This document shows positions 440-57,905 of a DNA stretch of 64,000 nucleotides, one piece after another. The DNA comes from the human T2T-CHM13v2.0 reference genome, Homo sapiens: contig CP068257.2 of the NCBI GenBank assembly GCA_009914755.4, forward strand, positions 43,808,001 through 43,872,000, written 5' to 3'. A model generated the notes under the pieces. That model saw nothing but the letters and a program-made list of their open reading frames with translations. It ran no database searches and was not told the origin of the DNA. The position numbers and the translations under genes are program-made. Position 1 is the first letter of the stretch. Each line of letters begins with the position of its first letter.

Positions 440-905
440 GCCCAAGAGTGGCAGTCCTGGTGTGGGCGGTGGTGCTGGTGTGGGCGGCGGTCCTGGTGTG
501 GGCAGCGGGGCTGGTGTGGGCAGCGGTGCTGGTGTGGGCGGCGGTCCTGGTGTGGGCGGTGGTGGTGCTGGTGTGGGCGGAGGTCCTGGTGTGGGCGGCG
601 GTCCTGGTGTGGGCGGAGGTCCTGGTGTGGGCGGTGGTGGTGCTGGTGTGGGCAGCGGTGCTGATGTGGGTGGTGGTGCTGGTGTGGGCGGTGGTGGTGC
701 TGGTGTGGGCAGCGGTGCTGATGTGGGTGGTGGTGCTGGTGTGGGTGGCGGTGCTGGTGTGGGCGGCGGTGCTGATGTGGGTGGTGGTGGTGCTGATGTG
801 GGCGGCGGTGCTGGTGTGGGCGGTGGTGGTGCTGGTGTGGGTGGTGGTGGTGCTGATGTGGGCGGCGGTGCTGGTGTGGGCGGCGGTGCTGGTGTGGGTG
901 GATTC
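440..905. repeat. GC-rich minisatellite, ~18-bp unit (GGTGCTGGTGTGGGCGGC, occasionally 21 bp), about 25 copies
   Basis: Direct reading shows the same 18-mer reiterated with point variants (ggc/agc, ggt/gat). All six frames stay open, which produces the Gly/Ala/Val and Pro/Thr pseudo-ORFs at 264-1227. Confidence 0.9.
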
Positions 906-9989: not shown

Positions 9990-11140
9990 TCTGAGAGTGC
10001 AAGTACATGGTGAGTGTGCTTGCCTGTGTGCGTGTGTGTGTGAGCATGCATGGCAGAGCTGAGCATGCATATGCACTCTGTGACATGTGTAAGCATGTAT
10101 GTGAGCTTGTGTATGCATGTATTCATGTGTGACGTGTGTGTATATATGTGAGCTTGTGTATGCATGTGAGTACTCACGTGTGACATGTGAGCATATATGT
10201 ACGTGTGTGTTTCTGTATGCATGTGTGTATTCACGTGACGTGAGCATGCATGTACATATGTGATTGTGTATGCATGTGAGCATTCATGTGACACATGTAA
10301 GCATGTATGTACATGTGGGGGCTTGTGTATGCATGTGAGCATTTGTATCTGACATGTAAGCATGTGTGTGTGAGCTTGTGTATGCATGTATTCATGTGTG
10401 ACATGTGTGAGCATGTATGTGAGTTTGTGTATGCATGAATATTCACATGTGACGTGTGAGCATATATGTACGTGTGATTGTGTATGCATGTGAGTATTCA
10501 CTGACGTGTGAGCATGCATGTACATATGTGATTGTGTATGCATGTGAGCATGTATGACATGTGTAAACATGTATGTATGTGGGGCTTGTGTATGCATGTG
10601 AGTATTCACATGTGACATGTGAGCATGTATGTACATGTGTGTGAGTATTCACATGTGACATGTGAGCATGTATGTACATGTGTGACCTTGTGTGTGCATG
10701 AGTATTCACATGTGACATGTGAGCCTATATGTATGTGTGTGATTGCGAGTATTCATGTGTGACATGTAAGCATGTATGTACATGTGTGAGCTTGTGTATG
10801 CATGTGAGCATTCATGTATGACATGTAAGCATTATGTATGTGTGTGGGCTTGTGTATGCGAGTATTCACATGTGACATGTGTGAGCATGTATGTGTGTGT
10901 GATTGTGTATGCATGTATTCATGTGTGACATGTGAGCATGTATGTACATGTGTGTGCTTGTGTATGCATATGAGCATTCATGTCTGGCACGTACGCTTAT
11001 ATGTACATGTGTGGGGGCTTGTGTATGTGAGTATTCACATGTGACATATGGCATAGCTAAGCATGCATGTGCATGTGTTCATGCATGAGCAGGAGTGAGC
11101 ATACATATATGTGTGCATATGTGGGTGTTCGTGTGTGAGC
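9990..11140. repeat. Minisatellite with a compound unit of 43-57 bp ('agtattcacatgtgacatgtgagcatgtatgtacatgtgtg' with or without 'accttgtgtgtgcatg'), about 25 copies
   Basis: The anchor 'agtattcaca' recurs at intervals of 43 and 57 bp. The array is rich in CATGTG/ACATGT palindromes. Confidence 0.85.
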
Positions 11141-12849: not shown

Positions 12850-13252
12850 GAGCAGGGGCTGGGGGCCGCTGCCTCAGTGCTTCTGGGATGGGGTCCTGGC
12901 TTGGAGCCCCAATCCAGAGACTCAGCAGCCCTGCCCCGGCAGAGCCTAGCGGAGCACGTTGGGAACCCTGTGGACACTGCACACAGCACCCTCTGTCCTC
13001 ACGGAGCCTGGGGCTGCTGCAGGGCCGTGGGAAAGAAGTTATAAATCCTTGGGTGCTGGAACCCCCGGGTGCTGGGCACCTTGATTCCAAGGCTGGTGCC
13101 TTCTTTCCTTCTGCAAGAGTGGGGGGTGGAAGACAGCCGGCCAGAGGCTGGGAAGCCTGCACAGGGGAGGGCAGGAGGGCGTGAGCCTGGCTAGCCCCAC
13201 CTCCAGGCACAGAGGCCCTCCCGCCGCCCGCAGCTCCAGCCGCACTGCCCCG
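12850..13252 (+). promoter_or_regulatory. COL18A1: Putative COL18A1 promoter 2 and exon-3 5' UTR (CpG-rich, TATA-less)
   Basis: This CpG-dense GC-rich sequence lies immediately 5' of the ATG at 13253. No TATA box is visible. Exon 3 is known to be an alternative first exon. The transcription start site cannot be placed from sequence alone. Confidence 0.4.
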
Positions 13253-13321
13253 ATGGCTCCCTACCCCTGTGGCTGCCACATCCTGCTGCTGCTCTTCTGC
13301 TGCCTGGCGGCTGCCCGGGCC
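13253..13321 (+). other. COL18A1: Signal peptide of the promoter-2 isoforms (MAPYPCGCHILLLLFCCLAAARA)
   Basis: A hydrophobic Leu/Cys-rich core is followed by an AAARA-type cleavage motif. Confidence 0.6.
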
Positions 13322-13898
13322 AACCTGCTGAACCTGAACTGGCTTTGGTTCAATAATGAGGACACCAGCCACGCAGCTACCACGATCCCTGAGCCCCAGG
13401 GGCCCCTGCCTGTGCAGCCCACAGCAGATACCACCACACACGTGACCCCCCGGAATGGTTCCACAGAGCCAGCGACAGCCCCTGGCAGCCCTGAGCCACC
13501 CTCAGAGCTGCTGGAAGATGGCCAGGACACCCCCACTTCTGCCGAGAGCCCGGACGCGCCAGAGGAGAACATTGCCGGTGTCGGAGCCGAGATCCTGAAC
13601 GTGGCCAAAGGCATCCGGAGCTTCGTCCAGCTGTGGAATGACACTGTCCCCACTGAGAGCTTGGCCAGGGCGGAAACCCTGGTCCTGGAGACTCCTGTGG
13701 GCCCCCTTGCCCTCGCTGGGCCTTCCAGCACCCCCCAGGAGAATGGGACCACTCTCTGGCCCAGCCGTGGCATTCCTAGCTCTCCGGGCGCCCACACAAC
13801 CGAGGCTGGCACCTTGCCTGCACCCACCCCATCGCCTCCCTCCCTGGGCAGGCCCTGGGCACCACTCACGGGGCCCTCAGTGCCACCACCGTCTTCAG
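13253..13898 (+). CDS. COL18A1: COL18A1 exon 3 short form: an internal 5' splice site (G|GTAGAG at 13898/13899) in the same phase as the distal donor, giving the medium isoform that lacks the Frizzled domain
   Basis: 'ccg tct tca g|gtagagc' leaves one base over (phase 1), exactly as the distal donor does. Either form joins exon 4 in frame (..PPSS-ERISEE..). It encodes 215 aa and one extra base. Confidence 0.6.
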
Positions 13899-14603
13899 GT
13901 AGAGCTTCTCTCTCCTCCTTGCTGGGCGGGGCCCCTCCCTGGGGAAGCCTGCAGGACCCAGACAGCCAAGGACTCTCGCCTGCCGCAGCCGCTCCCAGCC
14001 AGCAGCTCCAACGCCCTGACGTCCGCCTGCGCACGCCACTTCTGCACCCCCTGGTGATGGGCTCCCTGGGCAAGCACGCGGCCCCCTCCGCCTTCTCCTC
14101 TGGGCTCCCGGGCACACTGTCTCAGGTCGCAGTCACCACTTTAACCAGGGACAGCGGTGCTTGGGTCTCCCACGTGGCTAACTCTGTGGGGCCGGGTCTT
14201 GCTAATAACTCTGCCCTGCTCGGGGCTGACCCCGAGGCCCCCGCCGGTCGCTGCCTGCCCCTGCCACCCTCCCTGCCAGTCTGCGGCCACCTGGGCATCT
14301 CACGCTTCTGGCTGCCCAACCACCTCCACCACGAGAGCGGCGAGCAGGTGCGGGCCGGGGCACGGGCGTGGGGGGGCCTGCTGCAGATGCACTGCCACCC
14401 CTTCCTCGCCTGGTTCTTCTGCCTGCTGCTGGTCCCCCCATGCGGCAGCGTCCCGCCGCCCGCCCCGCCACCCTGCTGCCAGTTCTGCGAGGCCCTGCAG
14501 GATGCGTGTTGGAGCCGCCTGGGCGGGGGCCGGCTGCCCGTCGCCTGTGCCTCGCTCCCGACCCAGGAGGATGGGTACTGTGTGCTCATTGGGCCGGCTG
14601 CAG
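13253..14603 (+). CDS. COL18A1: COL18A1 exon 3, coding part, long form: signal peptide, DUF959-like region and Frizzled cysteine-rich domain. Ends in phase 1 at the donor G|GTAACT
   Basis: ATG at 13253 gives MAPYPCGCHILLLLFCCLAAARA.... The 450-codon ORF ends in ...DGYCVLIGPAA followed by g|gtaactgg at 14603/14604. That G plus the AG at the start of exon 4 (25964) makes GAG, giving the ...AAERISEEV join. Confidence 0.88.
14252..14581 (+). other. COL18A1: Frizzled-type cysteine-rich domain within exon 3
   Basis: Cys spacing C-x9-C-x36-C-x8-C-x6-C-x10-CC-x2-C-x6-C-x12-C-x10-C, with the motifs PxCxxLGxxxxxLPN and CCxFCE. Confidence 0.75.
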
Positions 14604-15952
14604 GTAACTGGCCGGCCCCGATCTCCCCACCCTTTCCTTTTTGCCTTGCCAGGTAAGTGTGGGCGGGGCTGACGTGAGCCTGGTACAGGTTCCCCCCACA
14701 TCGAATCTCTACGTTCAGGGGCCCGTGGCCCTCGGGAGGTGGGAGAGCTGGGAGTGAGGCCTCCTGTGTGGGGAGGAGGCCGGCGTCTGGACAGGAAGAG
14801 GGCTGGATGAACCGCAGCCGATGTGTCCAGGTGCCACCTGGGCCTGGAGCTCCCTGAGCATTTTAGCGCATTTAGTCCTCAGCACGGTCCCGAGATACCC
14901 TGCCATGCCCCGAGTCACAGAGGGGAAACTGAGGCGTGGGGCAGTGGCGTGACTCACCCCAGGGAGCCGAGATTCCCGCTCAGGTGTGGCTGCATCGACC
15001 TTGCTCCGGTCACTAAGCTGCACGGTTCGATGCGCTTCCTGGGAGCCCCAGCGTGCTCGGGCCAAGGGTGCTGCCGCGTGGGCAGTGCAGAGACCCTACC
15101 AGCGTGGGGACCAGGGAGGTCTGCAGGGCCCGTCCTGAGAGGGAGCCTTTCATGTCCCCCTCCCCATCCTGAAGCACACAGCCTCCCTGCCACAGTGGGG
15201 GCCGCTTCTGGGCCCAGGGGACGTTGCCCCATCACCGTGTGGCCTGGCCTTGTTGCTGGCTGGACAGTTGGGGGCAGGAAGAGGAGGGAAAGGGGGACTC
15301 TTTAACCTCCTGGGGGCAGGGGCAGCCCAGAAAGGACCCCAGCAGATCCCTCCTCTGTGTCCGGGAGTAGACGGGGCCCCTGAGCTGTGCCTGCCCCATT
15401 CAGATTCTGCTTGCTATGTGCACCTGGCAGCCTTGGCCCAGAGGCCCTATCCCCGCAGGGTGAGGTGCTCTGTCCTCCTCTGCTGTCCTCCCCATAGTGC
15501 CGAGGGGAAGCAGCCTTGCTGTTTGCTCTTTGGGCTTTGGGACAGGGTTGGTGGGGGTTAGCAGCTGTGCCGGACCTGGAGGTGGGGGTGCCTGCAGTGG
15601 AAATTCTGGTGGACGCCCACCCACCAGGCTCCGTGAGGGATGACGAGCTTGGTGATTCCCCTTGAGTTTCAGGCCAGTGACCGTTTCTCTCAGCAAAGCC
15701 CAGAGCCTCTGCAGACCCTGTGTGGGGCCTGGGGAGTGGCCGGGGGGCCACAGACAGGGCAGGGACAAGTGCTGACAACAGGTGGTCCCAGGAGTAAAGC
15801 CCACGTGGGCTGGAATGGAGGGGCAGGGAGGGAGGGAGGGAGGGAGGGCTGCAGCGGGGCCTGGCTGAGCCTGAGGGGGGCACAGGAACTGCGCTGGGGG
15901 GGCCTGGTGTGTGCAGGAGTGGGGGCCCTTGTGGATGCGCCCCAGAAGCATA

Positions 15953-16165
15953 GGGCTGGAGCTCTCCGAGGCAGGGGCCGTGCCCGCGGCTGTTGGCATC
16001 TCGTAGGGCTGGAGCTCTCCCAGGCAGGGACCGTGCCCACGGCTGTTGGCATCTCGTAGGGCTGGAGCTCTCTGAGGCAGGGGCCGTGCCCACGGCTGTT
16101 GGCATCTCATAGGGCTGGAGCTCTCTGAGGCAGGGGCTGTGCCCGCGAATGTTGGCATCTCAGGG
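15953..16165. repeat. Tandem repeat, 53-bp unit x 4 (ggctggagctctccgaggcaggggccgtgcccgcggctgttggcatctcgtag)
   Basis: The anchor 'tagggctgga' recurs every 53 bp. Confidence 0.85.
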
Positions 16166-17777
16166 CTTAGATGTCACCCCCAGGGCAGCTGGCACTGCCA
16201 CAAGCAGCCAGATTCCTGGGTCCCACTCATCCTCCGTCCCTGGAACACCCAAATGCCCAGCAAGCACCAGCCGCCTTGCAGGCAACCCCCCCGGAGCCAC
16301 ACCCCACCTGGCTACTGTTCCCCACCAAGCATGTGGGTAGGGCAGCCTTGCAGGAGCCGTACTGACTGGAGGGACCCGGGTCCGGTGTCCTGGAGCCCCG
16401 GGAGGCTCCAGCACAGCCCACCTTGTCCTCCACTGCAAGCCCACGGAGGCAGACAGGACAGCGGTGGGCTGGGAGGGCTGCAGCCTGTGGGAGGGGAAAC
16501 GCCAGGCCTGCACACCTGACCCTGCCCTAGCCCTGCCAGCCCGAGACTGTCTGGGATCAGCTGAGCACTGTGAGCAAGCTTCAGCCTCAGGGAAGGTGCC
16601 GGTCTCCTGGGAGTTGGGGCACAGCTGCATGGCTTGGGGGCTGGGGTCCGAGTGGGGCTGTGAGGGCGAGGAATTTCTGCAACTGCAGCTGGCCCGGTCG
16701 GTGGCACAGCCTGATGGGGACTTTTCACTGAACATCTGGACAGCTTGGTAGCGTCCCCGTGCGAGGGAGGCCGTGTCCCGTGCAGGGTCCTGGGGGACTC
16801 CATCAGCGTTCCTGGCCTGCATTGCCTCTGGCCAGGGGTGGGCCTCAAGCTTTATCAAGGAGCCCCTTCCCAGGTGTGGCCTGGCCGGGAGGGTCCTGCC
16901 CCCTCTTCTGGCCTCTCAGCTCCTCCCCAGCCCAGGCTCCTCTTGGGTTAGCCCCAACTCCTGCCGGACCCCTATGTTGGGCTGGACACTCCCAGCCCTG
17001 GGTGAGGGGCAGGAGGAGGAGGGGGAGCCCAGCCTGACCCCTCGGGCAGACTTCGAGGCCCCGAAAGTGGGGGTGCTGGGCTGTGATCCGGGCACCAGAA
17101 CAGAGCCCTCGAGGCCCACAGAGGTCCCTGGCTGCATCTCCAGGGATCAGGGAGTATGTGCCCCTGAGGGGAGGGGAGCTGGAGGGGTCCTGCTGCCTCC
17201 TGCCCGGCTCCATCTCCAGCGCCCCCTCCACCTCGTCCTGGGCACTGCCCTGTGTGTCCACCCCGCCGGCCCACCTCGAGGAGAGTGTGGGGGACAGTGC
17301 AGCCGTGCTGGGGCGTGGGGGGCGCTCAAAGGGAGGGTGAACCCTGTGGTCAGCACACAAGCAGGGACCCTGTGGAGGGTTTTGCTGTGTTGTGGGCTTG
17401 TCCCTCAGGTCCACGAGGAAGGGAGTGAGGCCCCCTCACACGGGAGGGCCGGGGTGGGGTAGGGAGGCTCCCTTGCTGCAGCTGCCAAGAGTGAGGGAGC
17501 GGGGCTTGGGCTTGGGCTGCCCGGGACACTGCCTCCAGGAAGCCCCCTGGGCTGTCTCAGTGGGACTCTGTGAGTGACACATGGAGCTCAGGTCACAAGG
17601 GCTGTGGGAGTGTCACCCCACAACAGCAACGGGTGCCTGGCCCTCTGGACTTTGCTCTCTACACCCCTCCTGAGCTCTCACAAACCCTGGCCCCTGGGAC
17701 CGGAGGCAGGTGATGTTTCCAAGGAGTCCTACAGGCAAGCATCCTCTGACCTGGGAGCTGCGTATTGTTCCCGTTTA

Positions 17778-18075
17778 CAGGTGAGAAACTGAGGCCTAGG
17801 AAGGACAGACACGTGTGCGTGCCGCAAGTGTGGCTAGCAAGGAGGGAGCCTGGAGGAGGGCCCAGCAGCCTGGCCCCAGAGCGCTCTTCAGCATCGCAGC
17901 AGATGCAGGACAAGCAAGCTCCCAGCCGGGGAGCACCAGGAGACCAGCAGGCATCCACCCTCGTGGTGCAGGCCATCTGATGAGGGCAGGGACCAGTGCC
18001 GGGATGGATAGTGCCTGTGCACAGAGTGGGGCGCAACTGGGCACAGCTGCCACCGGGGTGCTCGGGAGGCAGGTC
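17778..18075 (+). repeat. ~300-bp interspersed-repeat segment, possibly an old L1 3' terminus; inverted homolog of 19090-19385
   Basis: The reverse complement of 19100-19385 aligns to 17778-18070 at about 80-85% identity (ctgaggcctaggaaggacagacacgtgtgcgtgccgcaagtgtggctagcaagg...). The ORF-track proteins 17659..18102(-) and 19004..19387(+) are visibly homologous. Confidence 0.65.
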
Positions 18076-18964
18076 CACACACACGCCGGCCAAGTCGCTC
18101 ATCTCAAATGCACGAGTCCCGTGATCTTGGAAAGTGGTGCACAGGCCCCTGGGCTGGGGCTTCCTCTGCCTCCACCCCCATCACTGGACATTCGGAGGTC
18201 AGTGGGAGGCCACGGGAGTGCACGTGAAGGTCATGTCACCATGATGGCCCCGAGGGGCTGCTCCTTCATCGCTCCTCCCTACCCCATGGGCCAGCCACTG
18301 GCACACAGGTGTCCTTATATGGTGCTTACCTCTTGCTCCTTTAGTCAAATGCAGAATTTGAGAAAATGTCCCTTCTCCTTAAAATGCTTTGATTTGTTTG
18401 ATGTTTCCATGTAACTTTGGTTTAAGAAGGGAGAAGACCACTCTGGGAAATAACTCATGCTTATCTCTCACCGCTTGGCAACCTACAAATATTTTTTCGA
18501 TGATGCTGGCTAAGCTTCTCGTAAATTCTCCATGCCTCTTAGATGCACCAAGAGTGACTCAGCATTTAACTCCTACTGGAGTGTCAAGGGCCCAGTGCAT
18601 TGGGTGCAGTTGTCTGTGGGTACAAGATCTTGTGTGATTCTGAACTAAGCACAGACAGAATGAAAAGCACAGCACTCCAAACAGGGCTTCCTGCAGGTCC
18701 TTTTACGTATATTTGGGTTTTTGTATATATCTAAGGTCAAGCTAGTGGACATCTATCACTTCAACCAGTTACCGTTGTGAGTGTGGTGAGAAAACTTAAG
18801 ATCTACTCAAGTTTGAAGTGCCATATGCGATACAGTATTCTAGCTGTAATCACCATGTGTACATTAGACCTCTAGAACTTACTTTTCCTGCATAACTGAA
18901 ACTTTGTACCCTTCGACCAACAGTCACATTTCCTCTTCTCTGTGGGCTGGCCTCGGCTGTGCCC

Positions 18965-19085
18965 TGTTAGCATTCCCAGATAAACAAAAGCTAAGGGGGT
19001 TAATTGCCACTAGACCTTCCCTGCAGGAAATGGTCCAGTAGTCCAACAGGCGAAATGAAAGGACACTACTCAGTAACAGTAAGTC
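18965..19085 (-). repeat. Left arm of a ~120-bp inverted repeat, paired with 19609-19726
   Basis: The reverse complement of 18965-19085 (gacttactgttactgagtagtgtcctttcatttcgcctgttggactactggaccatttcctgcagggaaggtctagtggcaattaacc..) matches 19609-19726. Confidence 0.7.
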
Positions 19086-19089
19086 AAGG

Positions 19090-19385
19090 AGGCCCCCGTT
19101 GCCTATGCACAGAGTGGGGTGGCAGCTGTGCCCCATTGCACCCCACTCTGTGCATGGGCACCGTCCATCCGGCACCAGTCCCTACCCCTTATCAGATGGC
19201 CTGCACCATTAGGGTGGACACCTGCTGGTCTCCTGGTGCCCCCCTGCAGGGCTCTTCCTTGTCCTGCATCTGCTGCAATGCTGAAGAGCAGTCTGGAGCC
19301 AGGCTGCTGGGCCCCCCTCGAGGCTTCCTTGCTAGCCACATCTGTGGCACACACGCATATTTGTCCTTCCTAGACCTCAGCCCCT
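19090..19385 (-). repeat. Inverted copy of the 17778-18075 repeat, contiguous with antisense L1-like sequence
   Basis: See the 17778-18075 entry. It ends in 'cagcccctgacaacc', which resembles the L1 3' UTR motif ccagcccctggcaacc in antisense. Confidence 0.65.
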
Positions 19386-20660
19386 GACAACCACCATTCT
19401 ACTCTGCTCCTATGAATGTGACTTTTTTAGATCCCACATGTGAGATCATGCAGTATTTGCTTCTATGCCTGCCTTATTTCCTTTAGTTTAATATCCTCCA
19501 GGTTCATTCATAAAAAGTGCAGTTACAAACTGTTGTTGCAATACCAGCTTTTATAATTGCCCATGTATTTACCTTTATTGAGATCTTCATTTCTTCATGT
19601 GACTTACTGTTATTGACTAGTGTCCTTTCATTTTACCTGCTGGACTCCCTGGACCATTTTCTGCAGGGCAGGTCTAGTGGCAATTAACTCCCTTAGCTTT
19701 TGTTTATCTGGGAATGCCAATTTCTCCCTCACTTTTGAAGGACAGTTTTACTGGATATAGGACTCTTGGTTAACAGTTTTTTTTTTCTTTTAGTACATTG
19801 AATATATTGGTCCACTGCCTTTTGGCTTCCAAAGTTTCTGTGACAAATCTGCTGATAATCTTATTAAGAAGCCCTTGGATGTGATCAGTTGCTTTTCTCT
19901 TGCTGCTTTCCAGATTCTCTCTCTGTTTTTGAAAGTTTGATGATAATGTAACTTGGTGTGAGTCTCTTTGAGTTTACCTTACTTGGAGTTCCCTGAGCTC
20001 TTAACTGTTTATATTCATGTCTCCCAACAAATTTGAGAAGCTTTCAGCCATTATTTCTTCAGATAGTCTCTCTGCACCTTTCTTTTTCTCTTCTGTTTGC
20101 AGCTTCCACGGCATGCATGCTTCCTTGTCTCTTGATGGTGGCCACAAGCCCCTTAGGCTCTTTTCACCTTTCTTTCATCTTTTGTCTTTGAAAATTTCCA
20201 TTATCTTATCTTCAAGCTCATTAATTTATTCTTTTGTCTGCTCAAATCACCTTCAGATTCCTCTAGTGATGTTTTCAATTTCAGCTATTGTACTTTTCAG
20301 TTCTGTAATTTCTTTCTGGTTTCTTTCAAGGTTTTTATATTGATATTTCCATGTTGTTCATACATCACTTTCTTGACTTTCTCCACACCTTCCTGTAGTT
20401 CTTTGAGCATCTTTAAGACAGTCATTTTAAAGTCTTTGTCTAGTAGATCTGCCATCAGGTCTTTTGCAGAGACAGCTTCTGTTAATTTATTTTTCTCCTT
20501 TGAATGTGCTATATTTTCTTATTGCTTTGTGTGCCTTGTGATTTTGTGTTAAAAAGTGAACATTTGAACTCAGTAATGTGGCTCTTGAATTTTGCCCTTC
20601 ACCAGCGTTCGCTTTTTTTTGTTACTTTTTAAAAAATGTTTTGTGTCTGTGCCAGAAATC
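19385..20660 (-). mobile_element. Old L1 (L1M-like) 3' region, antisense
   Basis: 'caaccaccattctactctgctcctatgaatgtgacttttttagatcccacatgtgagatcatgcagtatttg..' and later 'cttttgaaggacagttttactggatataggactcttggttaacagtttttttt' match antisense L1 3' UTR/ORF2-end consensus motifs. The match is diverged. Confidence 0.6.
19609..19726 (+). repeat. Right arm of the ~120-bp inverted repeat, paired with 18965-19085
   Basis: See the 18965-19085 entry. Confidence 0.7.
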
Positions 20661-21337
20661 TCCCTTAGGTGTGAACTTCAGGTCTTCTCAGGTCTTTTCT
20701 GAGCCTGTCCCTTTCCCTGGGTGTGTGCAGCCACTTTCTAATTTTCCTCTTACATGCTGCTGTTTTTCAATGTCCCGTTCTTTCATGTTTGGCTCCCAAA
20801 GGAGGAATAAGATAAAAATGAGGGAGAAAAAACAGTGCCAGCCCTCTAAATCCCCTTCAAGTCACTTCAGCTGGAAGGGGCAGCTTGCAACAACAGAGGG
20901 AGTGTAAAACAATGGCCCCACCTCCCTGTCTGCACATCTGTGATCCCAGGCAACCTGATCAGAGCACAGGTTCTCGATGTCTGCAGGACAGGGTCCTTTT
21001 TGCCGTCCTGTTTCCCACAAGCTGTGTGGCTGCTGCTCCAGGAACTCGTGCATGGCACCTGCTATGGGAATGGGGGTGGAGGATGGATGTGTGGCTGCTA
21101 TTGTGCCAAGAGCTGGGGTTTAGCTAAATTAACCACCCGTTACCGTCCAAGCCTTCCTGTGGACATTGCAAGCTTTCAGTAGACTCCAGAGTTCCAAAAG
21201 AGTTCTAAGACAAATTCTGCCCATGCACTTGTTAATTAGTTGGGGAGATGGATTCCTGGCGCTTTCCATCTGCCATTTACCAGAGTACTCCAGAATCATT
21301 TTCAAACACGTTTCTTTCTGTCAAGAAATCAAGTCTT

Positions 21338-21644
<307 letters not shown>

Positions 21645-22214
21645 TCAAGTCTTGAGGCATCATCATTGTTATATCATGTGCAGGTGTCTAGCCTGGATGC
21701 CACCCAGCTATGCCAAATGCGGGGAGAAACTCCCTATGGGCACTGTGGCTGGGTCCAGAGCTCAGAGGCTGGAGCTTTGAGAACTGGGCTGGAGCCAAAC
21801 CATGATGGAAGCCTCTAGCTCTCAGGAAGAGACACACATCTGCGGGGGCAGAGTGACCACATTTCCAGGTTGCCCAGCCCTCGGGAGTAGCACAGTGCCC
21901 AGGCACTGGGGCAGAGGTGGATCCCGTAGTCCCTCGGTGGGAGCTCCAAAGCCTCCCGTTTTCATCTCTTCCTCTTCCCAGGATGGGATTTTGGGGATGA
22001 GATCTTCCTGGTGGGCTGGAGTCTGTCCCAGAAGTCAACAGCCCAACCTGGGGCCAAAAAAGACCCTCTTAGATAAGGCAGGCCCTCGGCAAGACTCCAG
22101 CCACACATGAGAGGGTGGAACAGAGCTCCTGAGTCCCACTAACCACGGCCACCTGCAGTGGTCAGGTGGGGGCACCGTGTCCATCCCCCCATGGGTTTGT
22201 GCCAATTTGCATAT

Positions 22215-22640
22215 AGGTATGTAGCTTCCTATTGGCGACTGTAAGAAATTGCCACAAATTCAGTGGCTTAAACCAACACAGCTGTCTTACCTTTCAGTTT
22301 TGGAGGTCAGAGTCTGAAACCAGTTCACTGGGCTGAAACCAAGGTGTTGTCAGGGCTGGGTCCCTCTGGGACTCTGGAGGAGAATCTGTTTTCTTGACTT
22401 TTCCAGCCTCTAGAGGCTGCCGCTTCCCTTCGCTCAAAGCCCCTTCTTCCCCCTTCAAAGCCAACGGTGTTGGACAAGTCCTCATGGTGCCATCTTTTGT
22501 CCTTCGATTTTAAGGCTTTGTGTGGTTAGATGTGGATCATCTCCCATCTCCAGGTCCACAGCCTGAGTCCCAGCTGCAGCATCCCCTTGCCACGTAAAAT
22601 TACGCTTGTGGGTTCCAGCTGTTGTGCCGTGGACATCCTT
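22215..22640. mobile_element. Ancient interspersed repeat (the widely distributed 'cagtggcttaaaccaacac..ttctggaggtcagagtctgaaa..gggctgaaa(c/t)caaggtgttg' family). Family name not resolved
   Basis: This motif series is common in mammalian genomes. I cannot assign it to a named family from memory. Confidence 0.4.
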
Positions 22641-25779: not shown

Positions 25780-26868
<1,089 letters not shown>

Positions 26869-28639: not shown

Positions 28640-28940
28640 GGGCTGGGGCTGGGGCCCTGCTGGGCGTGGGTGGCGTGCAGCAGGCCGTGTGCTGCTGGGC
28701 GTGGGTGGCGCGCTACAGGCTTCGTGCTGCTGGGCCTGGGTGGCGTGCTACGGGCTTGTGCTGCTGGGTGTGGGTGGCGCGCTACGGGCCTTGTGCTGCT
28801 GGGCCTGGGTGGCGCGCTACGGGCCGTGTGCTGCTGGGCCTGGGTGGCGCACTACGGGCCTTGTGCTGCTGGGCGTGGGTGGCGTGCAGCAGGCCGTGTG
28901 CTGCTGGGCGTGGGTGGCGCGCTATGGGCCGTGTGCTGAG
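28640..28940. repeat. GC-rich minisatellite, ~35-bp unit x ~9 (gtgctgctgggcctgggtggcgcgctacgggcctt)
   Basis: The anchor 'gtgctgctggg' recurs at 34-35 bp spacing. Confidence 0.9.
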
Positions 28941-32430: not shown

Positions 32431-32795
32431 CGTGAACATGGACCCACAGCCTCGCTCCTGGGGGCGTGGGCAGGAGACGCCGTGGACGTGGACCCACAGC
32501 CTCGCTCCTGGGGGCGTGGGCAGGAGACGCCGTGGACGTGGACCCACAGCCTCGCTCCTGGGGGCGTGGGCAGGAGACGCCGTGGACGTGGACCCACAGC
32601 CTCGCTCCTGGGGGCGTGGGCAGGAGACGCCGTGGACGTGGACCCACAGCCTCGCTCCTGGGGGCGTGGGCAGGAGACGCCGTGGACGTGGACCCACAGC
32701 CTCGCTCCTGGGGGCGTGGGCAGGAGACGCCGTGGACGTGGACCCACAGCCTCGCTCCTGGCGGCGTGGGCAGGAGACACCGTGGCTGGACTGTG
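32431..32795. repeat. Tandem repeat, 50-bp unit x ~7 (gacccacagcctcgctcctgggggcgtgggcaggagacgccgtggacgtg)
   Basis: The anchor 'gacccacagc' recurs every 50 bp. The ORF track shows a 50-aa periodic pseudo-protein. Confidence 0.9.
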
Positions 32796-40795: not shown

Positions 40796-41834
40796 GTACA
40801 AGCAGAATCCCTGGCACATCAGTCCCCTGCCCCTGGTGCCCACTCAGTGCTCGGACCCCCAAAGAGGGTGGCAGCCCCACGGTCGAGAGAGTGAGCTCTC
40901 TTGGGGCTGGCCTTGACCCCCACTCCTGCCATCTGTCCATCCGTCCTGCCGGAATCGCGGGCAGCAGCCTCTGTCACTCTGGCGAGGTGGCTTCGGCCCT
41001 TGTCACTTTTGTGATGTGGCTTCCGCCGAGCTCTGGTCTGCCGGTGAACTGAGAGTAGACGCGCCCTGGAAGCTGAGCTCGTCTGGAAACAAGCTCCGTG
41101 TGGCAAGCGCGATAAAGCAGCTCCAGGAGCTTTGGGAGGAGGGGCTGGGCCACAGCAGGTGGAGAGGCTGCCCGTGGCCTGGGGAGGGCCCTGAGCTGGG
41201 CCCCCCAACATCCCCCCATAGGGGAGCCCCATCCACCCGTCCCGCAGGCTCATGAGCATCTGGGGGCACTCGGAAGGAGCGCTGAAGGCAGCCCGGGTGT
41301 CCTTGGCGGCCCTGGCCTGGCCCAGAGTCTGCTCAGACCCTCTGGACTCAGGGCAGCTGCTCTCCATGGACCCAGCCTTCCTTCGGGCAGCCTGAGGTCT
41401 GGGCCACAGCCTGCTTGACCAGACAATTTATCTGACACCCCCCCAACGACCCACTTCCTCCTTCTGTTCTGTGGAAATTGAGCTGGAGGAGGAGCTAGAA
41501 CCCTGCAGAGGAGGGGCTGGGAGCCGGGTCTGGGCCTCCAGTCAGCATCTGTGCCGACCCCACCACAGACGCCCCCGGAGGTGCCCTCGAGGATCCAGGC
41601 TTCCGTGGGCCGCCCACTCGAATCATGTCCAAAACGTCAGGAGCTCCTCACCTTGGGCTGGACGGGGTTGGCACTAACGGGGAACTTTCCCCAGAACATG
41701 GCCAAGCTCCAGGATGGGGGTGATGAGGGAAGGAAGGCCAGTGGGGAGAGGAGTGAGGAAGAGGACAGCTGCGAGTCAGGTGGTGAGAGCACTTGGAGGG
41801 GCTGAGAGGACATGGGCTGGGAGTGAATGCATGT

Positions 41835-42790
41835 GCACATATACACACACACCTCTCCAGCATATGTACACATGCACACACACACCTCTCCAGCATATGT
41901 ACACATGCACACACACCTCTCCAGCATATGTACACATGCACACACACACCTCTCCAGCATATGTACACATGCACACACCTCTCCAGCATATGTACACATG
42001 CACACACCTCTCCAGCATATGTACACATGCACATACACACCTCTCCAGCATATGTACACACACACACACCTCTCCAGCATATGTACACACACACACACCT
42101 CTCCAGCATATGTGCACACGCACACACACCTCTCCAGCGTATGTACACACACACCTCTCCAGCATATGTACGCGCGCACACACCTCTCCAGCATATGTGC
42201 ACACACACACATAGGCACACACATCTCCAGCATATGTGCACACACACCTCTCCAGCATATGTGCACACACACACATAGGCACACACATCTCCAGCATATG
42301 TGCACACACACCTCCAGCATACATGCACACACATGCACACACACATCTCCAGCATATGTGCGCACACACATACACACACACACATCTCCAGCATGTGTGT
42401 ACACACACACACCTCTCCAGCATATGTGAGCACACACACACCTCTCCAGCATGTGTGCACACACATGCACGCCTCTCCAGCATATGTGCACACACACACA
42501 CGCACCTCTCCAGCATATGTGCACATACACATAGCCAGCACATGTGCACACAGCTCTCATGTATGTGCACGTGTATCTCTAGCATACATGCACACATGTA
42601 TCTGGTGTATATGTGCAACACATACATGTATCTGGGGCATGTGCACACGCATCTCTTATGTGCACATACACATGTATCTAGGTATGTGCCCACGTTTTTC
42701 TAGCACACATGCACACACATCTCTCTAGCATATGTACACACACATGTATTTGTAGTGTGTGTGCACATCTGTGTCTCTAGTATGTGTGCA
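41835..42790. repeat. Minisatellite, 31-36-bp unit (cacacacctctccagcatatgtacacatgca), about 22 clean copies and then degenerate copies to about 42790
   Basis: The anchor 'acctctccagcatatgt' recurs at 31-36 bp spacing. The large Cys/His-rich pseudo-ORFs 41637..42693 derive from it. Confidence 0.9.
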
Positions 42791-43520: not shown

Positions 43521-44220
43521 TTAGATTTTTAAAGACGATAAAAGGATGCCAGGCACTAAGACAGATTAAAGCCAAGAAAGTAAAATCTAAGATTCTCATG
43601 AAGTTAGCCCTCAAGTTAAGTGGGTGGTACATGGTGCCCACCTGTTAAGACCCAGCGTAGCTGTTGGAGGGTGGCTGCAGTGGAGACCCAGCCCTAGAAG
43701 GGAGGAGACAGGAGGCAGTCGAGGATCACCTTGGCGGGTGGAGGGCGGGGAAAGCTCTGGCTTGGAGGCCCAGCCCCTGTGGGGGACATGGGAAGCAGGA
43801 AGGACCCTTCCCCACAGAGGGGGTTTCCTTCCTCCAGCTGGGCCTGTGACCATATCAAGGCAGCGGGTCACATTCCTGCCCCATTTGTGGACAGTGCTGG
43901 GCTCACACTATCTCATTCCGCTCTGTCCCGAGCCTGGGAAGGAACCCTGGGCCTCTCCGTCTACAGCCACGGAAACCGAGGCTCAGGGAGCTTGTGGCTG
44001 CGAGGAGAGGGGTGGTGCAGCTGGGCCACGTCACAGCGGGACCCCTGCCTCAGGGCCTCCCTCCCTCACGCCCCCCACACCGGGCTCTCACCTCACACTC
44101 CAGGTGGCTGGGGCCTTGGGTCACCGATGGCTCCAGCACATGCCTCCGGGCTCGCCTGCTTCTCACGGCTTTCGGACTAATAGAGTCACCGCAATGCCTG
44201 TGTCTACCCTAGCCCCAGTG

Positions 44221-44497
44221 GTCCCAGGGTCCTGAGCCTCCTCTCCTCTCTCCTCTCTTCTCCCCTTGCCTGCCGGGGAGCCAGGGCTGGTCCCAGGGTC
44301 CTGAGCCTCCTCTCCTCTCTCCTCTCTTCTCCCCTCGCCTCCCGGGGAGCCAGGGCTGGTCCCAGGGTCCTGAGCCTCCTCTCCTCTCTCCTCTCTTCTC
44401 CCCTCGCCTCCCGGGGAGCCAGGGCTGGTCCCAGGGTCCTGAGCCTCCTCTCCTCTCTCCTCTCTTCTCCCCTCGCCTGCCCGGGAGCCAGGGCTGG
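44221..44497. repeat. Pyrimidine-rich tandem repeat, 69-bp unit x 4 (gtcccagggtcctgagcctcctctcctctctcctctcttctcccctcgcctcccggggagccagggctg)
   Basis: The anchor 'gtcccagggt' recurs every 69 bp. A 23-aa periodic pseudo-ORF lies on the minus strand. Confidence 0.9.
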
Positions 44498-48285: not shown

Positions 48286-48598
48286 GCTGGCACGAGATGT
48301 GCCCTCGTGGGTCCCTGGGCCTCCATGTGCCCTCGTGGGTCCCTGGGCCTCCATGTGCCCTCGTGGGTTCCTGGGCCTCCATGTGCCCTCCCGGGTCCCT
48401 GGGCCTCCGTGTGCCCTCCCGGGTCCCTGGGCCTCCGTGTGCCCACTCCCGGGTCTCTGGGCCTCCGTGTGCCCTCCTGGGTCTCCGTGTGCCCTCTCAG
48501 GTCCCTGGGCCTCCGTGTGCCCTCCCGGGTCCCTGGGCCTTCGTGTGCCCTCCCAGGTCTCTGGGCCTCCGTGTGCCCACTCCCGGGTCTCTGAGCGC
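48286..48598. repeat. Tandem repeat, 28-30-bp unit x ~10 (gtgccctcgtgggtccctgggcctccat)
   Basis: The anchor 'gccctcgtgg' recurs every 28 bp. Later copies are 30 bp (gtgcccactcccgggtctctgggcctccgt). Confidence 0.9.
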
Positions 48599-48767
48599 CA
48601 GGAGTTAAGTATAAGTCTCCGTCAGGGCTCTTGGTGGCTGCCTCCCTCCCAGGCCCCAGCCGGTCGGGAAATAAAGAACCCCACATCTTCATCAGAGCCA
48701 TCCCTCACGGGGGGCCAGGGGCTCCTGTTTCTGTTGGTGATGAACCATTTCCTTCCTGTCTCTCCAG

Positions 48768-55624: not shown

Positions 55625-56267
55625 GGACCACCAGGTGAGCAACTCTGGACATCCCAGGCAGGAGAGCCATGGCGTGGCCAGCACTGAAGTGTGGTCACAC
55701 CTAGAGCCGCCACCACAAGCAGGTCCTGGACCCTCACTGGGTGGTGACCACCTCACCCTGCGGGAGGAAGGAAGCCCCTTCTGGGTTGATGGGGGCCTCA
55801 TAGGACCTGGATTTGGGGGCGAGGGTGGCTGCAGGGCACAGGCCCAGCAAGATAGCCCCATCACCTCCTGAGGAGCAGATGGCTGCCCTTCCATGCTAGA
55901 CCCAGGTGGGCACTGCGCAGAGACACAGCAGCTTCAGTGTCCTGAGATGCCCCCTCCCCTCCACGGGGCCGGGGGTCGGCACTGGAGGACTCTCTGTCGA
56001 GAAACTCTCCAGGGTTTCATGTGGGAAGGAGGCGTTGCCCGACAGGCCGTCTGGAGGGTGAGCCCAGCACCCCTGCTCCCCCAAAGGACAAGAATTCCCC
56101 CCTGAGCCCCACCTCCATTGAGGGTGGCAGGGCTGCTTGGATGTCCTGCCAAGACCACTGAGAACAGCTGGATAAAATGTGAGAAAACCACTGTTTGAGG
56201 ATGTCTGGGGGCTGGCAGAGCAGAAGCCCAGAGAGCCAGGCTAGCCTCGGGCGCCTTTCACCACCAG

Positions 56268-56480
56268 GGTCCCCTCTCGCCGCCACGGTCCCCTCTCGCC
56301 GCCAGGGTCCCCTCTCACCGCCAGGGTTCCCTCTCGCCACCACGGTCCCCTCTCGCCGCCAGGGTCCCCTCTCGCCGCCAGGGTCCCCTCTCGCCGCCAC
56401 GGTCCCCTCTCGCCGCCAGGGTCCCCTCTCGCCGCCACGGTCCCCGCTCGCCGCCAGGGTCCCCTCTCGCTGCCAGGGTC
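56268..56480. repeat. Tandem repeat, 19-bp unit x ~11 (ggtcccctctcgccgcca(c/g))
   Basis: The anchor 'ggtcccctct' recurs every 19 bp. Confidence 0.9.
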
Positions 56481-57334
56481 CTCTGCAGAGGAGGCCGCCA
56501 TACCTGCTCTTGCTGGGGCTGCACTCTGGGGTGGGAAGGGACCAGGCAGGCAGAGGCCGAGTCTGGGCCGGGACATCCTTAAGGCCTGTGGAGGCAAAGG
56601 CAGGCAGAAAGCAAGCGGGAAGATGGAAGATGCGCCCATGCCAGCCTTGGATCTCTCAGCGTCACACACGACGCCCAGGAAGGAGTGAATGATGCACAGA
56701 TGACCAGAAACCAGGAGAAGAGGCCAGTGACACACCAGACCAGGAGGCCCAGCTCATGGGGTCATCGGACCCACCTTGAACTCTGAAGGTCACACATTCA
56801 AAAGCCACAGGAAGTCTGGAGATGGCAGCAGAGAGCTGGGAAGCTCAGAGGTGTCAGGATGAACCTGGGGCTGAAGGCGGAACAGTTGGAGATTGAGACC
56901 TGTGTATAGGTTTTGGTCGACGTGGGATTGCTTGTCCCTGGGAGCCAGAACGAGGGCTCCGAGGGCTCTAGAGGGAACAGTGTTTGCAGGCGGAATGGCT
57001 GATGCTCTTCCAAAGCCAAGGAAGGCTCAGAGCATTCCCCTCATTCGAAGGATCAACAATTAGAGTGACGAGATTTCTCAACAAAACGGGAGAAGCCAGA
57101 AGACCATAAATGGTTTCCAAAATATCCAAGAAAGTCAATTGCCAGTGTAGACTCCGACAGCCAGTGGTACTCCCGTGGCCTTCAGAACGAAGATGACATG
57201 CAGGCCAGCCACTCCAGACCCGAGCTGTGTCGGCGGTGGAGGGTATTTCAGGGGGAAGACAAGGCCAAGGGAAAGGAGTGCAGAGATGGGGAGAGACAAC
57301 GCTGGCAGGAACCGGCGTCCCAGCGACAGGGAGG

Positions 57335-57905
57335 TCAGAGGCTCCCTCGGGAACCAGCGTGGGCTGCCCCACATGGCATCCCAGGAACAGTGGGGTCAGA
57401 GGCTCCCGTGGGAACCCGCGTGGGCTGCCCCACATGGCATCCCAGGAACAGTGGGGTCAGAGGCTCCCTCGGGAACCCGCGTGGGCTGCCCCGCATGGCA
57501 TCCCAGGAACAGTGGGGTCAGAGGCTCCCTCAGGAACCTGCGTGGGCTGCCCCGCATGGCATCCCAGGAACAGTGGGGTCAGAGGCTCCCGTGGGAACCC
57601 GCGTGGGCTGCCCCACATGGCATCCCAGGAACAGTGGGGTCAGAGGCTCCCTCGGGAACCCGCGTGGGCTGCCCCGCATGGCATCCCAGGAACAGTGGGG
57701 TCAGAGGCTCCCTCAGGAACCTGCGTGGGCTGCCCCGCATGGCATCCCAGGAACAGTGGGGTCAGAGGCTCCCGTGGGAACCCGCGTGGGCTGCCCCACA
57801 TGGCATCCCAGGAACAGTGGGGTCAGAGGCTCCCTCGGGAACCCGCGTGGGCTGCCCCGCATGGCATCCCAGGAACAGTGGGGTCAGAGGCTCCCGCAGG
57901 AACCG
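57335..57905. repeat. Tandem repeat, 61-bp unit x ~9.4 (gggaacccgcgtgggctgccccacatggcatcccaggaacagtggggtcagaggctccctc)
   Basis: In the 60-column layout the repeat shifts by exactly one base per line, so the period is 61. A 61-aa periodic pseudo-ORF is present at 57175..58124. Confidence 0.92.

What the first reader, a model, noticed from the sequence alone, without database searches (positions are those of the whole stretch)
17778..20660. Nested inverted repeats around an old L1: 300-bp copies in opposite orientation 1 kb apart, plus 120-bp inverted arms bracketing a 520-bp core
The interval 17778-18075 on + and 19090-19385 on - are about 80-85% identical. Independently, 18965-19085 on - and 19609-19726 on + are inverted copies of each other, and they flank the second 300-bp copy plus about 215 bp of antisense L1. 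This arrangement could arise from a local inverted duplication, or from a non-autonomous element with long terminal inverted repeats inserted into an L1. Either way it is a potential hairpin or cruciform former and a substrate for inversion by ectopic recombination. I could not assign the 300-bp unit to a named family.
Basis: seen in the sequence. Interest (0 to 1): 0.5.

Follow-up and report, generated by a model that had tools for sequence, protein, structure and literature searches.

The report
Old templated inverted insertion inside L1
The two inverted repeat pairs are one ~440-bp patch, made of reverse-complement copies of two nearby sequences, that was stitched into an old L1 in a COL18A1 intron before New World and Old World anthropoids split; it is a fossil of an error-prone repair or replication event, not a transposon, and has sat there without inverting.

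Summary
Both inverted pairs are real: A 17789-18054 / A' 19380-19118 (84.6%, E 6e-79) and B 19600-19720 / B' 19086-18967 (90.9%, E 5e-42). They are not nested. A' and B' lie side by side in one ~440-bp block (18941-19380) that interrupts an otherwise contiguous antisense L1 3' end.

The block reads: 26-nt filler, B', 10-nt filler, a 25-nt fold-back arm, then A'.
- A is the source. It is the 3' half of a MIR plus unique intron DNA, and one copy sits at the same position in Laurasiatherian contigs.
- B is the source. It is the in-frame C-terminus of the L1's own ORF1.
- The A'/L1 junction shares CTGAG with both partners.

The window is hominid COL18A1, in the intron after the frizzled-domain exon. 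Orangutan and tamarin carry the whole block with identical junctions and no inversion. Site patterns place the event shortly before the catarrhine/platyrrhine split.

Best reading: a single complex templated insertion by serial microhomology-mediated template switching (MMBIR/FoSTeS-like). The TIR-transposon reading, independent repeat fragments and L1 twin priming are rejected. It is ordinary in kind but a clean old example, so interest is low.

The parts
17725..17893 (+). MIR SINE remnant (consensus positions ~77-247); it continues 64 bp to the left of the A/A' homology edge
   Evidence: A' matches only from MIR position 139 onward.
17789..18054 (+). A, the source template of the 263-nt inverted copy: MIR 3' half plus ~145 bp of unique intron DNA
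   Evidence: Identity to A' is uniform across the MIR part (83.8%) and the non-MIR part (84.7%). A single orthologous copy lies colinear with exon 3 in Laurasiatherian contigs L004 and L005.
18690..18940 (-). L1 3' UTR, distal part (L1 sense is on the - strand), ending at the insertion breakpoint
   Evidence: aligns to the independent L1 3' end L001rc at ~534-778 (score 311, shuffles 78 +/- 9)..
18941..18966 (.). Filler X, 26 nt, with no identifiable template
   Evidence: the best local matches (10-13 nt) are at chance level. X is present in orangutan and tamarin.
18967..19086 (-). B', the inverted copy of B (L1 ORF1 C-terminus)
   Evidence: 90.9% over 121 columns, E 5e-42.
19087..19096 (.). 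Filler Y, 10 nt, with no identifiable template
19097..19121 (+). Fold-back (snap-back) arm. It pairs with 19139-19163 inside A' across a 17-nt loop and overlaps the start of A' by 4 nt (GGTG).
   Evidence: I5: 25 nt, 92%. (0 of 200 shuffles). The hairpin appears in the single-strand minimum-energy fold. Present in tamarin.
19118..19380 (-). A', the inverted copy of A
   Evidence: 84.6% over 267 columns, E 6e-79.
19376..19380 (.). CTCAG (CTGAG on the - strand): 5-nt microhomology shared by the end of A' and the L1 breakpoint
   Evidence: A starts CTGAGG. (L1 reads ...GGGGCTGAG in both the window and L001).
19376..19527 (-). L1 3' end, proximal part (ORF2 C-terminal tail and start of the 3' UTR); it abuts 18940 in an intact L1
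   Evidence: window 19495..19376 aligns to L001rc 411-536 (73%, score 294, shuffles 81 +/- 9); the reconstructed pre-insertion L1 aligns to L001 in one HSP across the join (E 1e-24).
19528..20660 (-). The same L1: inter-ORF region and ORF1 (ORF2 is missing), antisense to the host gene
   Evidence: Tnp_22_dsRBD at 19652-19838 (E 6e-14) and a weak Transposase_22 match at 19847-19930. Calling 19528-19600 inter-ORF rests on memory of L1 sequence.
19600..19720 (+). B, the source template of B'; it encodes the ORF1 C-terminus on the - strand

Best explanation
A single mutational event in the anthropoid stem lineage inserted a ~440-bp composite patch into the 3' UTR of an antisense, ORF2-less L1 in the COL18A1 intron after the frizzled-domain exon. 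The patch was synthesised by a DNA 3' end that left its template at the L1 site and copied two nearby stretches of the same-polarity strand, so both copies came out as reverse complements. One stretch is A, 0.9-1.15 kb to one side. The other is B, 0.22-0.34 kb to the other side. Between them lie a 21-25-nt snap-back on the newly made DNA and two short fillers (10 and 26 nt). The end then returned to the original template within 3 nt of where it left. The most likely process is replication-associated serial template switching primed at microhomology (FoSTeS/MMBIR-type), because the copied tracts are long (263 and 120 nt). Shown: the anatomy, the direction of copying, the local origin, the single insertion site, and the age. 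Inferred: the enzymology and the order of switches. Today the element is a neutral fossil. It can fold as single-stranded DNA or RNA, but it has not driven inversion or gene conversion.
For: 1. Single insertion site. The two L1 pieces flanking 18941-19375 abut in an independent L1 3' end (L001) with a 3-nt GAG overlap. The reconstructed pre-insertion L1 aligns to L001 in one HSP across the join.
2. Direction of copying. The MIR continues 64 bp beyond A's edge only at the A locus. A's orthologue is single-copy and colinear in Laurasiatherian contigs. B is in register within L1 ORF1.
3. Not independent repeats. A/A' identity is 84-85% in both the MIR and non-MIR parts, whereas each is only ~60% identical to the MIR consensus.
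4. One event. A' and B' are 35 nt apart in one block. Their non-CpG divergences, 9.6% and 6.8%, do not differ (Fisher p = 0.43).
5. Template-switch signatures. There is CTGAG microhomology at the A'/L1 junction, a 4-nt overlap at the fold-back, a significant 25-nt snap-back, and untemplated fillers.
6. Age. The whole block, with the same junctions, is in Pongo and Saguinus. Of the source/copy differences fixed in hominids, 13 arose after the tamarin split, 3 look older and 3 conflict.
7. Match to the published signature. MMBIR templated insertions are inverted copies of nearby templates flanked by microhomology; in humans they are larger and use several templates (PMC8421209). Reverse-oriented template switching is documented in great-ape evolution (PMC7954356).
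Against: No pre-insertion (empty-site) allele was obtained from a real genome; strepsirrhine and tarsier loci could not be retrieved. L1 contiguity rests on one independent L1 copy (73% identical) plus memory of L1 consensus. Roughly 9-15% divergence since the event blurs the junctions, so the microhomology lengths are approximate. Fillers X and Y are unexplained. The tracts and template distances (up to 1.15 kb) are longer than in the short-range template-switch events catalogued so far (tens to hundreds of nt; templates within 100 bp in MMBSearch). Nothing here distinguishes a replication fork from a repaired double-strand break, or a DNA template from an RNA template.
Confidence: 0.75

Rival explanations
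1. Double-strand-break repair by alternative end joining (Pol theta-mediated end joining / SD-MMEJ). A break in the L1 3' UTR was sealed after rounds of untemplated addition, snap-back synthesis and synthesis templated in trans.
For: The mix of untemplated fillers (10 and 26 nt), a 21-25-nt snap-back and templated tracts is what Pol theta produces when it oscillates between its three modes (PMC4912351). The junctions use 3-5-nt microhomologies. In yeast, complex insertions at breaks often contain two inverted pieces from one locus (PMC11724301).
Against: Pol theta insertions are short: the median is 7 bp and the templated runs quoted are 7-15 nt. Here the tracts are 120 and 263 nt. After resection, the strand needed as template for each copy is the one that has been degraded on the side where the template lies, so the geometry needs strand invasion rather than simple end annealing (inference).
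Confidence: 0.13
2. RNA-templated synthesis. A 3' end at a nick or break was extended by a reverse transcriptase (L1 ORF2p, or Pol theta acting as an RT) on a local transcript. That transcript was either the COL18A1 pre-mRNA (if the + strand was extended) or an L1 read-through transcript (if the - strand was). The enzyme skipped ~1.1 kb between B and A.
For: Both copies have the same polarity and lie in the order expected for an enzyme moving towards the 5' end of one transcript (B then A on the + strand, or A then B on the - strand). This follows from the coordinates. The region is an intron of an expressed gene.
Against: There is no poly(A), no 7-20-bp target-site duplication, and no T-rich L1 endonuclease site at the breakpoint (...CCTCTTCTC|TG...). 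The edges of the skipped segment carry no GT/AG splice signals (read). A DNA template explains the same polarity equally well.
Confidence: 0.06
3. Two or more steps. Either a ~1.5-kb inverted duplication of 17789-19720 was inserted into its own middle and then lost its central 1.1 kb, or A' and B' arrived in separate insertions at the same spot.
For: The insert equals the reverse complement of the pre-insertion segment 17789..19720 with an internal gap replaced by 35 nt (geometry). B/B' is nominally less diverged than A/A' (8.3% vs 13.7%).
Against: The divergence difference disappears at non-CpG sites (6.8% vs 9.6%, Fisher p = 0.43). All parts are already together in tamarin with the same junctions. 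This reading needs two rare events at one nucleotide position.
Confidence: 0.04
4. A non-autonomous DNA transposon with ~120-bp terminal inverted repeats (18967-19720) inserted into the L1.
For: Only the presence of 120-bp inverted termini.
Against: The right terminus is colinear L1 ORF1: dsRBD profile positions 39-63 lie at 19652-19726 and positions 2-40 at 19719-19838, so the match runs across the supposed element end. There is no target-site duplication. The interior is a copy of upstream intron DNA plus L1. No other copy exists in the window or the fetched loci.
Confidence: 0.01
5. L1 twin priming, or simply independent MIR and L1 fragments that happen to face each other.
For: Twin priming does produce inverted L1 segments (PMC2837659, abstract). 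MIR and L1 fragments are everywhere.
Against: Twin priming inverts the 5' part of the new L1 copy; it does not duplicate 120 bp of it, and it cannot bring in non-L1 DNA lying 0.9 kb beyond the poly(A) end. The L1 is colinear on both sides of the block. The A/A' homology extends ~145 bp beyond the MIR at the same identity. Independent MIR copies would be only ~60% alike.
Confidence: 0.01

Closest known systems
MMBIR/FoSTeS templated insertions (MMB-TI; Osia et al. 2021, PMC8421209; Hastings/Lee/Lupski models, cited from memory)
   Same: The insertion consists of inverted copies of nearby templates. Microhomology lies at the junctions. More than one template is used. Synthesis returns to the original locus. 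Such events are known as germline events in humans.
   Different: The tracts (263 and 120 nt) and template distances (0.2-1.15 kb) exceed the <=100-bp search radius and read-length limits of the catalogued events. The event is >40 Myr old and fixed, not somatic or pathogenic. It carries 10- and 26-nt fillers of unknown origin.
Short-range template-switch mutations, the four-point model (Loytynoja & Goldman 2017; Walker et al. 2021, PMC7954356)
   Same: Replication runs in reverse orientation on an alternate template, creates inverted repeats in the descendant, and is detected by comparing primates.
   Different: The four-point model describes a single switch-and-return within tens to hundreds of nt. 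This event needs at least 3-4 switches, two templates on opposite sides of the departure point, and a net 440-bp gain.
Pol theta end joining / SD-MMEJ insertions (Kent et al. 2016, PMC4912351)
   Same: It shows a mosaic of untemplated, snap-back (cis) and trans-templated segments with short microhomologies.
   Different: The templated tracts are one to two orders of magnitude longer than the 7-bp median.
Fold-back and inverted insertions at yeast double-strand breaks (Yu et al. 2024, PMC11724301)
   Same: Two pieces from one locus are inserted in inverted orientation by microhomology-mediated switching. A local fold-back arm is present.
   Different: The yeast fold-backs are mostly 5-34 bp. 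This is a mammalian germline event with much longer tracts.
L1 5' inversion by twin priming
   Same: An inverted L1 segment lies next to the L1 3' end.
   Different: Here the segment is a duplicate, it is fused to non-L1 DNA, and it sits inside an otherwise colinear L1. There is no new target-site duplication or poly(A).

Membership tests
Templated insertion by microhomology-mediated template switching (MMBIR/FoSTeS-type) | The inserted sequence is a copy of a template elsewhere, typically nearby and in inverted orientation | tested here: met
   A' is the reverse complement of A (E 6e-79) and B' is the reverse complement of B (E 5e-42). The templates lie 0.9-1.15 kb and 0.22-0.34 kb from the site.
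Templated insertion by microhomology-mediated template switching (MMBIR/FoSTeS-type) | Microhomology at the switch junctions | tested here: inconclusive
   CTGAG (5 nt) at A'/L1, GGTG (4 nt) at the fold-back, and a GAG overlap at the return point. Two junctions are hidden by fillers, and 9-15% later divergence blurs the edges.
Templated insertion by microhomology-mediated template switching (MMBIR/FoSTeS-type) | The recipient site is otherwise intact, so this is an insertion and not a rearranged mosaic | tested here: met
   The L1 pieces abut in an independent L1 copy, and one HSP crosses the reconstructed join.
Templated insertion by microhomology-mediated template switching (MMBIR/FoSTeS-type) | A pre-insertion allele exists in an outgroup | not testable with these tools
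   Only Pongo and Saguinus (both carry the insert) and Laurasiatherian contigs without the L1 could be fetched.
Templated insertion by microhomology-mediated template switching (MMBIR/FoSTeS-type) | Dependence on replication-fork collapse or BIR machinery (Pol delta, etc.) | not testable with these tools
   This is a matter of enzymology; it is inferred only from tract length.
TIR DNA transposon / MITE | Terminal inverted repeats that are the ends of a mobile unit, flanked by a target-site duplication | tested here: not met
   The right arm is internal, in-register L1 ORF1 sequence. The flanks GTGCCCTG / TTTCTCCC are not duplicated.
TIR DNA transposon / MITE | Multiple dispersed copies | tested here: inconclusive
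   None in the 64-kb window or in ~130 kb of fetched mammalian loci. No whole primate genome could be searched.
L1 twin-priming inversion | The inverted 5' segment and direct 3' segment together form one L1 copy flanked by a target-site duplication, with each part present once | tested here: not met
   B is present twice. The L1 is colinear on both sides of the block. Non-L1 DNA (A') is included.
Processed retrocopy / L1-mediated retroposition | A poly(A) tail, a 7-20-bp target-site duplication, and a TT/AAAA-like nick site | tested here: not met
   None is present at 18940/19376 in window, Pongo or Saguinus.
HAL1 (half-L1) family, applied to the host L1 and not to the insert | A non-autonomous L1 derivative encoding only ORF1p (PMC5753468), present as a family | tested here: inconclusive
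   The architecture fits: ORF1 and the inter-ORF region are joined to the last ~45 codons of ORF2 and the 3' UTR at ~19515-19535. No consensus library was available to tell a HAL1 member from a locus-specific deletion.

The most novel reading that the evidence does not exclude
The patch is a cDNA. A broken or nicked DNA end in the germline of an early anthropoid was extended by a reverse transcriptase on the local COL18A1 pre-mRNA (or on an L1 read-through transcript), skipped 1.1 kb, and was then ligated back. That would make it a naturally fixed example of RNA-templated break repair in primates.
Probability: 0.06. Interest if true: 0.6.

Novelty: new member of a known kind. Interest (0 to 1): 0.22.

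Why it matters
This is a well-resolved example, more than 40 million years old, of a complex multi-template inverted insertion fixed in primates. The source, copy, junctions and minimum age are all readable. It shows that template-switch events with tracts of hundreds of nucleotides, and with templates on both sides of the breakpoint, contribute to intron evolution. Such events are larger than current short-range detectors look for. It also shows that repeat annotation alone (MIR, L1, L1, MIR, L1) would hide the event. In addition, 120-270-bp inverted repeats with 0.5-1 kb spacers have persisted in three primate lineages for tens of millions of years without inversion or detectable gene conversion. 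There is no sign of function, so practical importance is low.

Tried and rejected
1. Other copies of A or B in the window: none found.
2. Pfam DUF1725 on the short ORF2 tail: no hit. The ORF2-tail identity therefore rests on the alignment to L001 and on memory.
3. Independent L1 references by pattern scans. One usable metagenome contig was found for the 3' end (L001). Nothing was found for the ORF1 C-terminus in genome contigs or viral contigs. Private mutations shared by B and B' relative to a consensus therefore could not be scored.
4. A first alignment across the insert with a cheap gap extension gave a meaningless path. It was redone piecewise.
5. Templates for fillers X and Y within +/-3 kb and within the whole window: only chance-level 9-13-mers. 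One match, AACAGGGCACAGC vs A 18035-18047, is suggestive but not significant (43 of 200 shuffles).
6. X as a diverged duplicate of the L1 target: about 55% identity, rejected.
7. Splice signals at the edges of the skipped segment, to test a spliced-RNA template: none.
8. Deeper outgroups. Exon-3 and exon-4 protein searches returned no strepsirrhine or tarsier. L004, L005 and L007 stop 3.2-3.4 kb after exon 3. L009 and L010 have only ~2.3 kb upstream of exon 4. The fox intron (L008) is mostly unalignable.
9. An 'empty L1 site' in L005: the alignment ends at window 18694, where the L1 starts, but the score is marginal (115 vs 83 +/- 12), so no claim is made.
10. ORFs across A and A' are GC-rich noise.
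Full report
**Observation.**
- The repeat finder on 17000-21500 returns five inverted pairs. They merge, with gaps, into two long pairs and one short one.
- A is 17789-18054 and pairs with A' at 19380-19118: 267 columns, 84.6% identity, blastn E 5.7e-79.
- B is 19600-19720 and pairs with B' at 19086-18967: 121 columns, 90.9% identity, E 4.7e-42.
- A 25-nt arm at 19097-19121 pairs with 19139-19163 (23/25). No shuffle out of 200 reaches its score.
- Neither A nor B has another copy in the 64-kb window.
The true edges are about 10-25 bp inside the ones given.

**What the pieces are.**
- The - strand of 19590-20660 translates to L1 ORF1. Pfam Tnp_22_dsRBD scores E 6e-14, with profile positions 2-40 at 19719-19838 and positions 39-63 at 19652-19726 after a frameshift. 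A weak RRM-domain match lies at 19847-19930.
- B is therefore the in-register C-terminus of this L1's ORF1, with L1 continuing on both sides.
- 19376-19495 and 18698-18940 both align to an independent L1 3' end (L001) recovered from a metagenome contig. The first piece matches L001rc 411-536 and ends at ...GGGGCTGAG. The second starts at about L001rc 534 (GAGAAG...) (scores 294 and 311 against shuffles near 80 +/- 9).
- When the block between them is removed, the reconstructed L1 aligns to L001 in a single HSP across the join (193 columns, 73.6%, E 1e-24).
- So 18941-19375/19380 is one insertion into a once-contiguous L1 3' UTR, with no loss of L1 sequence and a 3-nt GAG overlap.

**The 300-bp unit.**
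- The MIR runs 64 bp further left than the A/A' homology, and A' matches only from MIR position 139.
- A/A' identity is the same in the MIR part (83.8%) and in the 144 bp beyond the MIR (84.7%). Each copy is only about 60% identical to the MIR consensus.
- These are therefore not two independent MIR insertions. A sits in its native context and A' is a partial copy.

**Anatomy of the insert on the + strand.**

| Segment | Coordinates | Length | Note |
|---|---|---|---|
| Filler X | 18941-18966 | 26 nt | no template found |
| B' | 18967-19086 | 120 nt | inverted copy of B |
| Filler Y | 19087-19096 | 10 nt | no template found |
| Fold-back arm | 19097-19121 | 25 nt | overlaps A' by GGTG |
| A' | 19118-19380 | 263 nt | inverted copy of A |

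- The last five bases of A' (CTCAG; CTGAG on the - strand) are shared with the L1 breakpoint sequence GGGGCTGAG.
- Neither filler has a significant template within +/-3 kb or anywhere in the window.
- In pre-insertion coordinates, A lies 886-1151 bp to the left of the breakpoint and B lies 219-340 bp to the right. Each copy ends up next to the flank opposite its source.
- Both copies have the same polarity. They appear in the order expected if a polymerase ran along one same-polarity template strand and skipped about 1.1 kb.

**One event or two.** Raw divergence differs between the pairs (13.7% and 8.3%), but A is 65% GC with nine CpGs. At non-CpG sites the values are 23/239 and 8/118, and Fisher p = 0.43. 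Together with the 35-nt spacing and the single interruption of the L1, one event is the economical reading.

**Genomic context.**
- The window carries a large + strand exon at about 13.2-14.65 kb. It begins MAPYPCGC... and ends in a frizzled-type cysteine-rich module.
- Its relatives carry PF06121 and PF01392 and are named collagen alpha-1(XVIII) in Pongo, Vulpes, Loxodonta and Chinchilla.
- The next exon (the laminin-G/TSPN domain) lies at about 25.96-26.52 kb. Collagen Gly-X-Y exons follow.
- Alu elements are present.
- In a tree of the exon-3 peptides the window groups with Pongo.
- The window is therefore hominid COL18A1. The finding lies in the intron after the frizzled-domain exon, and the L1 is antisense to the gene.

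**Comparative test.**
- I fetched 10 kb downstream of that exon from Pongo abelii (L002) and Saguinus oedipus (L003).
- Pongo is colinear with the window from 16056 to 21382 in one HSP (94.4% identity).
- The tamarin is colinear from 16112 to 22419, broken only by a tamarin-specific Alu.
- There is no inversion of either inter-repeat segment in any of the three species.
- X, B', Y, the fold-back arm and A' are all present with the same junctions in both species. The event therefore predates the catarrhine/platyrrhine split, which is about 40-45 Myr ago from general knowledge.
- Among source/copy differences fixed in the two hominids, 13 arose after the tamarin split (5 on the source, 8 on the copy). 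Three look older and three conflict. The copies were thus almost identical at that split, which places the event in the anthropoid stem.
- The pooled non-CpG distance (JC 0.092) gives about 46 Myr at 1e-9 per site per year, which is consistent.
- Paralogue distances grow in every lineage. K2P for A/A' and B/B' is 0.165/0.089 in the window, 0.172/0.089 in Pongo and 0.259/0.154 in Saguinus. I see no ongoing gene conversion.
- Two Laurasiatherian contigs (L004, L005) carry a single A orthologue colinear with the exon, including part of the non-MIR sequence, and no detectable L1.
- No strepsirrhine or tarsier locus could be obtained, so a true empty site inside the L1 was not seen.

**Mechanism.**
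- The published signature of MMBIR-type templated insertions is an inverted copy of a nearby template flanked by microhomology. In humans these are larger and can use several templates (PMC8421209).
- Reverse-oriented template switching is documented in great-ape evolution under the four-point model (PMC7954356).
- Yeast breaks often capture two inverted pieces from one locus, together with short fold-backs (PMC11724301).
- Pol theta alternates between untemplated, snap-back and trans-templated synthesis, but with a median insertion of 7 bp and templated runs of 7-15 nt in the examples quoted (PMC4912351).
- The fillers and the snap-back here look like Pol theta work. The 120- and 263-nt tracts point to a processive polymerase.
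- I therefore favour replication-associated serial template switching (FoSTeS/MMBIR-like), possibly with an end-joining finish. The enzymology is inference.
- An RNA template, either the COL18A1 pre-mRNA or an L1 read-through transcript, fits the polarity equally well. It lacks any positive mark: there is no poly(A), no target-site duplication and no endonuclease site.

**Rejected readings.**
- TIR transposon: the right 'TIR' is internal ORF1 sequence and there is no target-site duplication.
- Twin priming: B is duplicated rather than relocated, non-L1 DNA is included, and the L1 is colinear on both sides.
- Independent fragments: the homology runs beyond the MIR at a uniform 84-85%.

**Present-day behaviour.**
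- As single-stranded DNA, 18960-19730 folds with the full B'/B stem and the 25-nt hairpin. The minimum free energy is -186.6 kcal/mol against -93.9 +/- 6.9 for shuffles, z = -13.4. Hairpin potential in single-stranded DNA or in the pre-mRNA is therefore real.
- Cruciform extrusion from duplex DNA with 0.5-1 kb spacers is not expected (established knowledge).
- The longest perfect matches are 19 and 28 bp. The three-species colinearity argues against inversion by ectopic recombination.

**Verdict.** The feature is an ordinary kind of mutation, a complex templated insertion, preserved unusually legibly. It is a new member of a known kind and of low interest.

Noticed in passing
window 13085-14653 (+), ~25960-26520 (+), and Gly-X-Y exons around 48-55 kb: The window is hominid COL18A1. 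It contains the long-isoform exon with the DUF959 and frizzled domains, the TSPN/laminin-G exon, and collagenous exons. The finding lies in the intron between the first two.
   Followed up: yes
window ~19515-19535: The host L1 has no ORF2. The inter-ORF region is joined directly to the last ~45 codons of ORF2 and the 3' UTR, only ~140 bp from the insertion site. This is a HAL1-like architecture, or a 3.7-kb internal deletion that could even belong to the same complex event. It is shared with orangutan and tamarin.
   Followed up: partly
L003 15847-16144 (orthologous to window ~19385/19386): A tamarin-specific Alu is inserted in the L1 a few bases from the A'/L1 junction, flanked by a GACAACCACCC(T)TC duplication. 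The tamarin also has a 9-bp deletion at the L1/X junction (window 18935-18943).
   Followed up: partly
window 17789-18054 vs 19118-19380: The source A keeps 9 CpGs and the copy A' only 4. Thirteen of the 36 mismatches lie in a CpG context. The copy inside the L1 may have decayed faster, possibly because of a different methylation state.
   Followed up: partly
window 457-901, 10079-11054, 15951-16161, 28657-28938, 32431-32785, 41829-42531, 44219-44497, 48298-48622, 56264-56481, 57314-57932, 58342-61458, 61981-62321: The density of minisatellites is unusually high (periods of 18-166 bp). It includes a 3.1-kb GT-rich array with a 36/72-bp period at 58.3-61.5 kb and a 61-bp x 10 array at 57.3-57.9 kb. 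This is typical of GC-rich subtelomeric DNA.
   Followed up: no
They confirm primate origin.
   Followed up: partly
window 16500-18250: A stretch of 63-69% GC with CpG observed/expected of only 0.25-0.42. It is GC-rich but not a CpG island. Long ORFs in all frames here are compositional noise.
   Followed up: partly
L005 10509-10683 vs window 18536-18694: In a Laurasiatherian contig the weak intron alignment stops at the base where the L1 3' end begins in the window. This hints that the L1 is absent there, but the score is marginal.
   Followed up: partly
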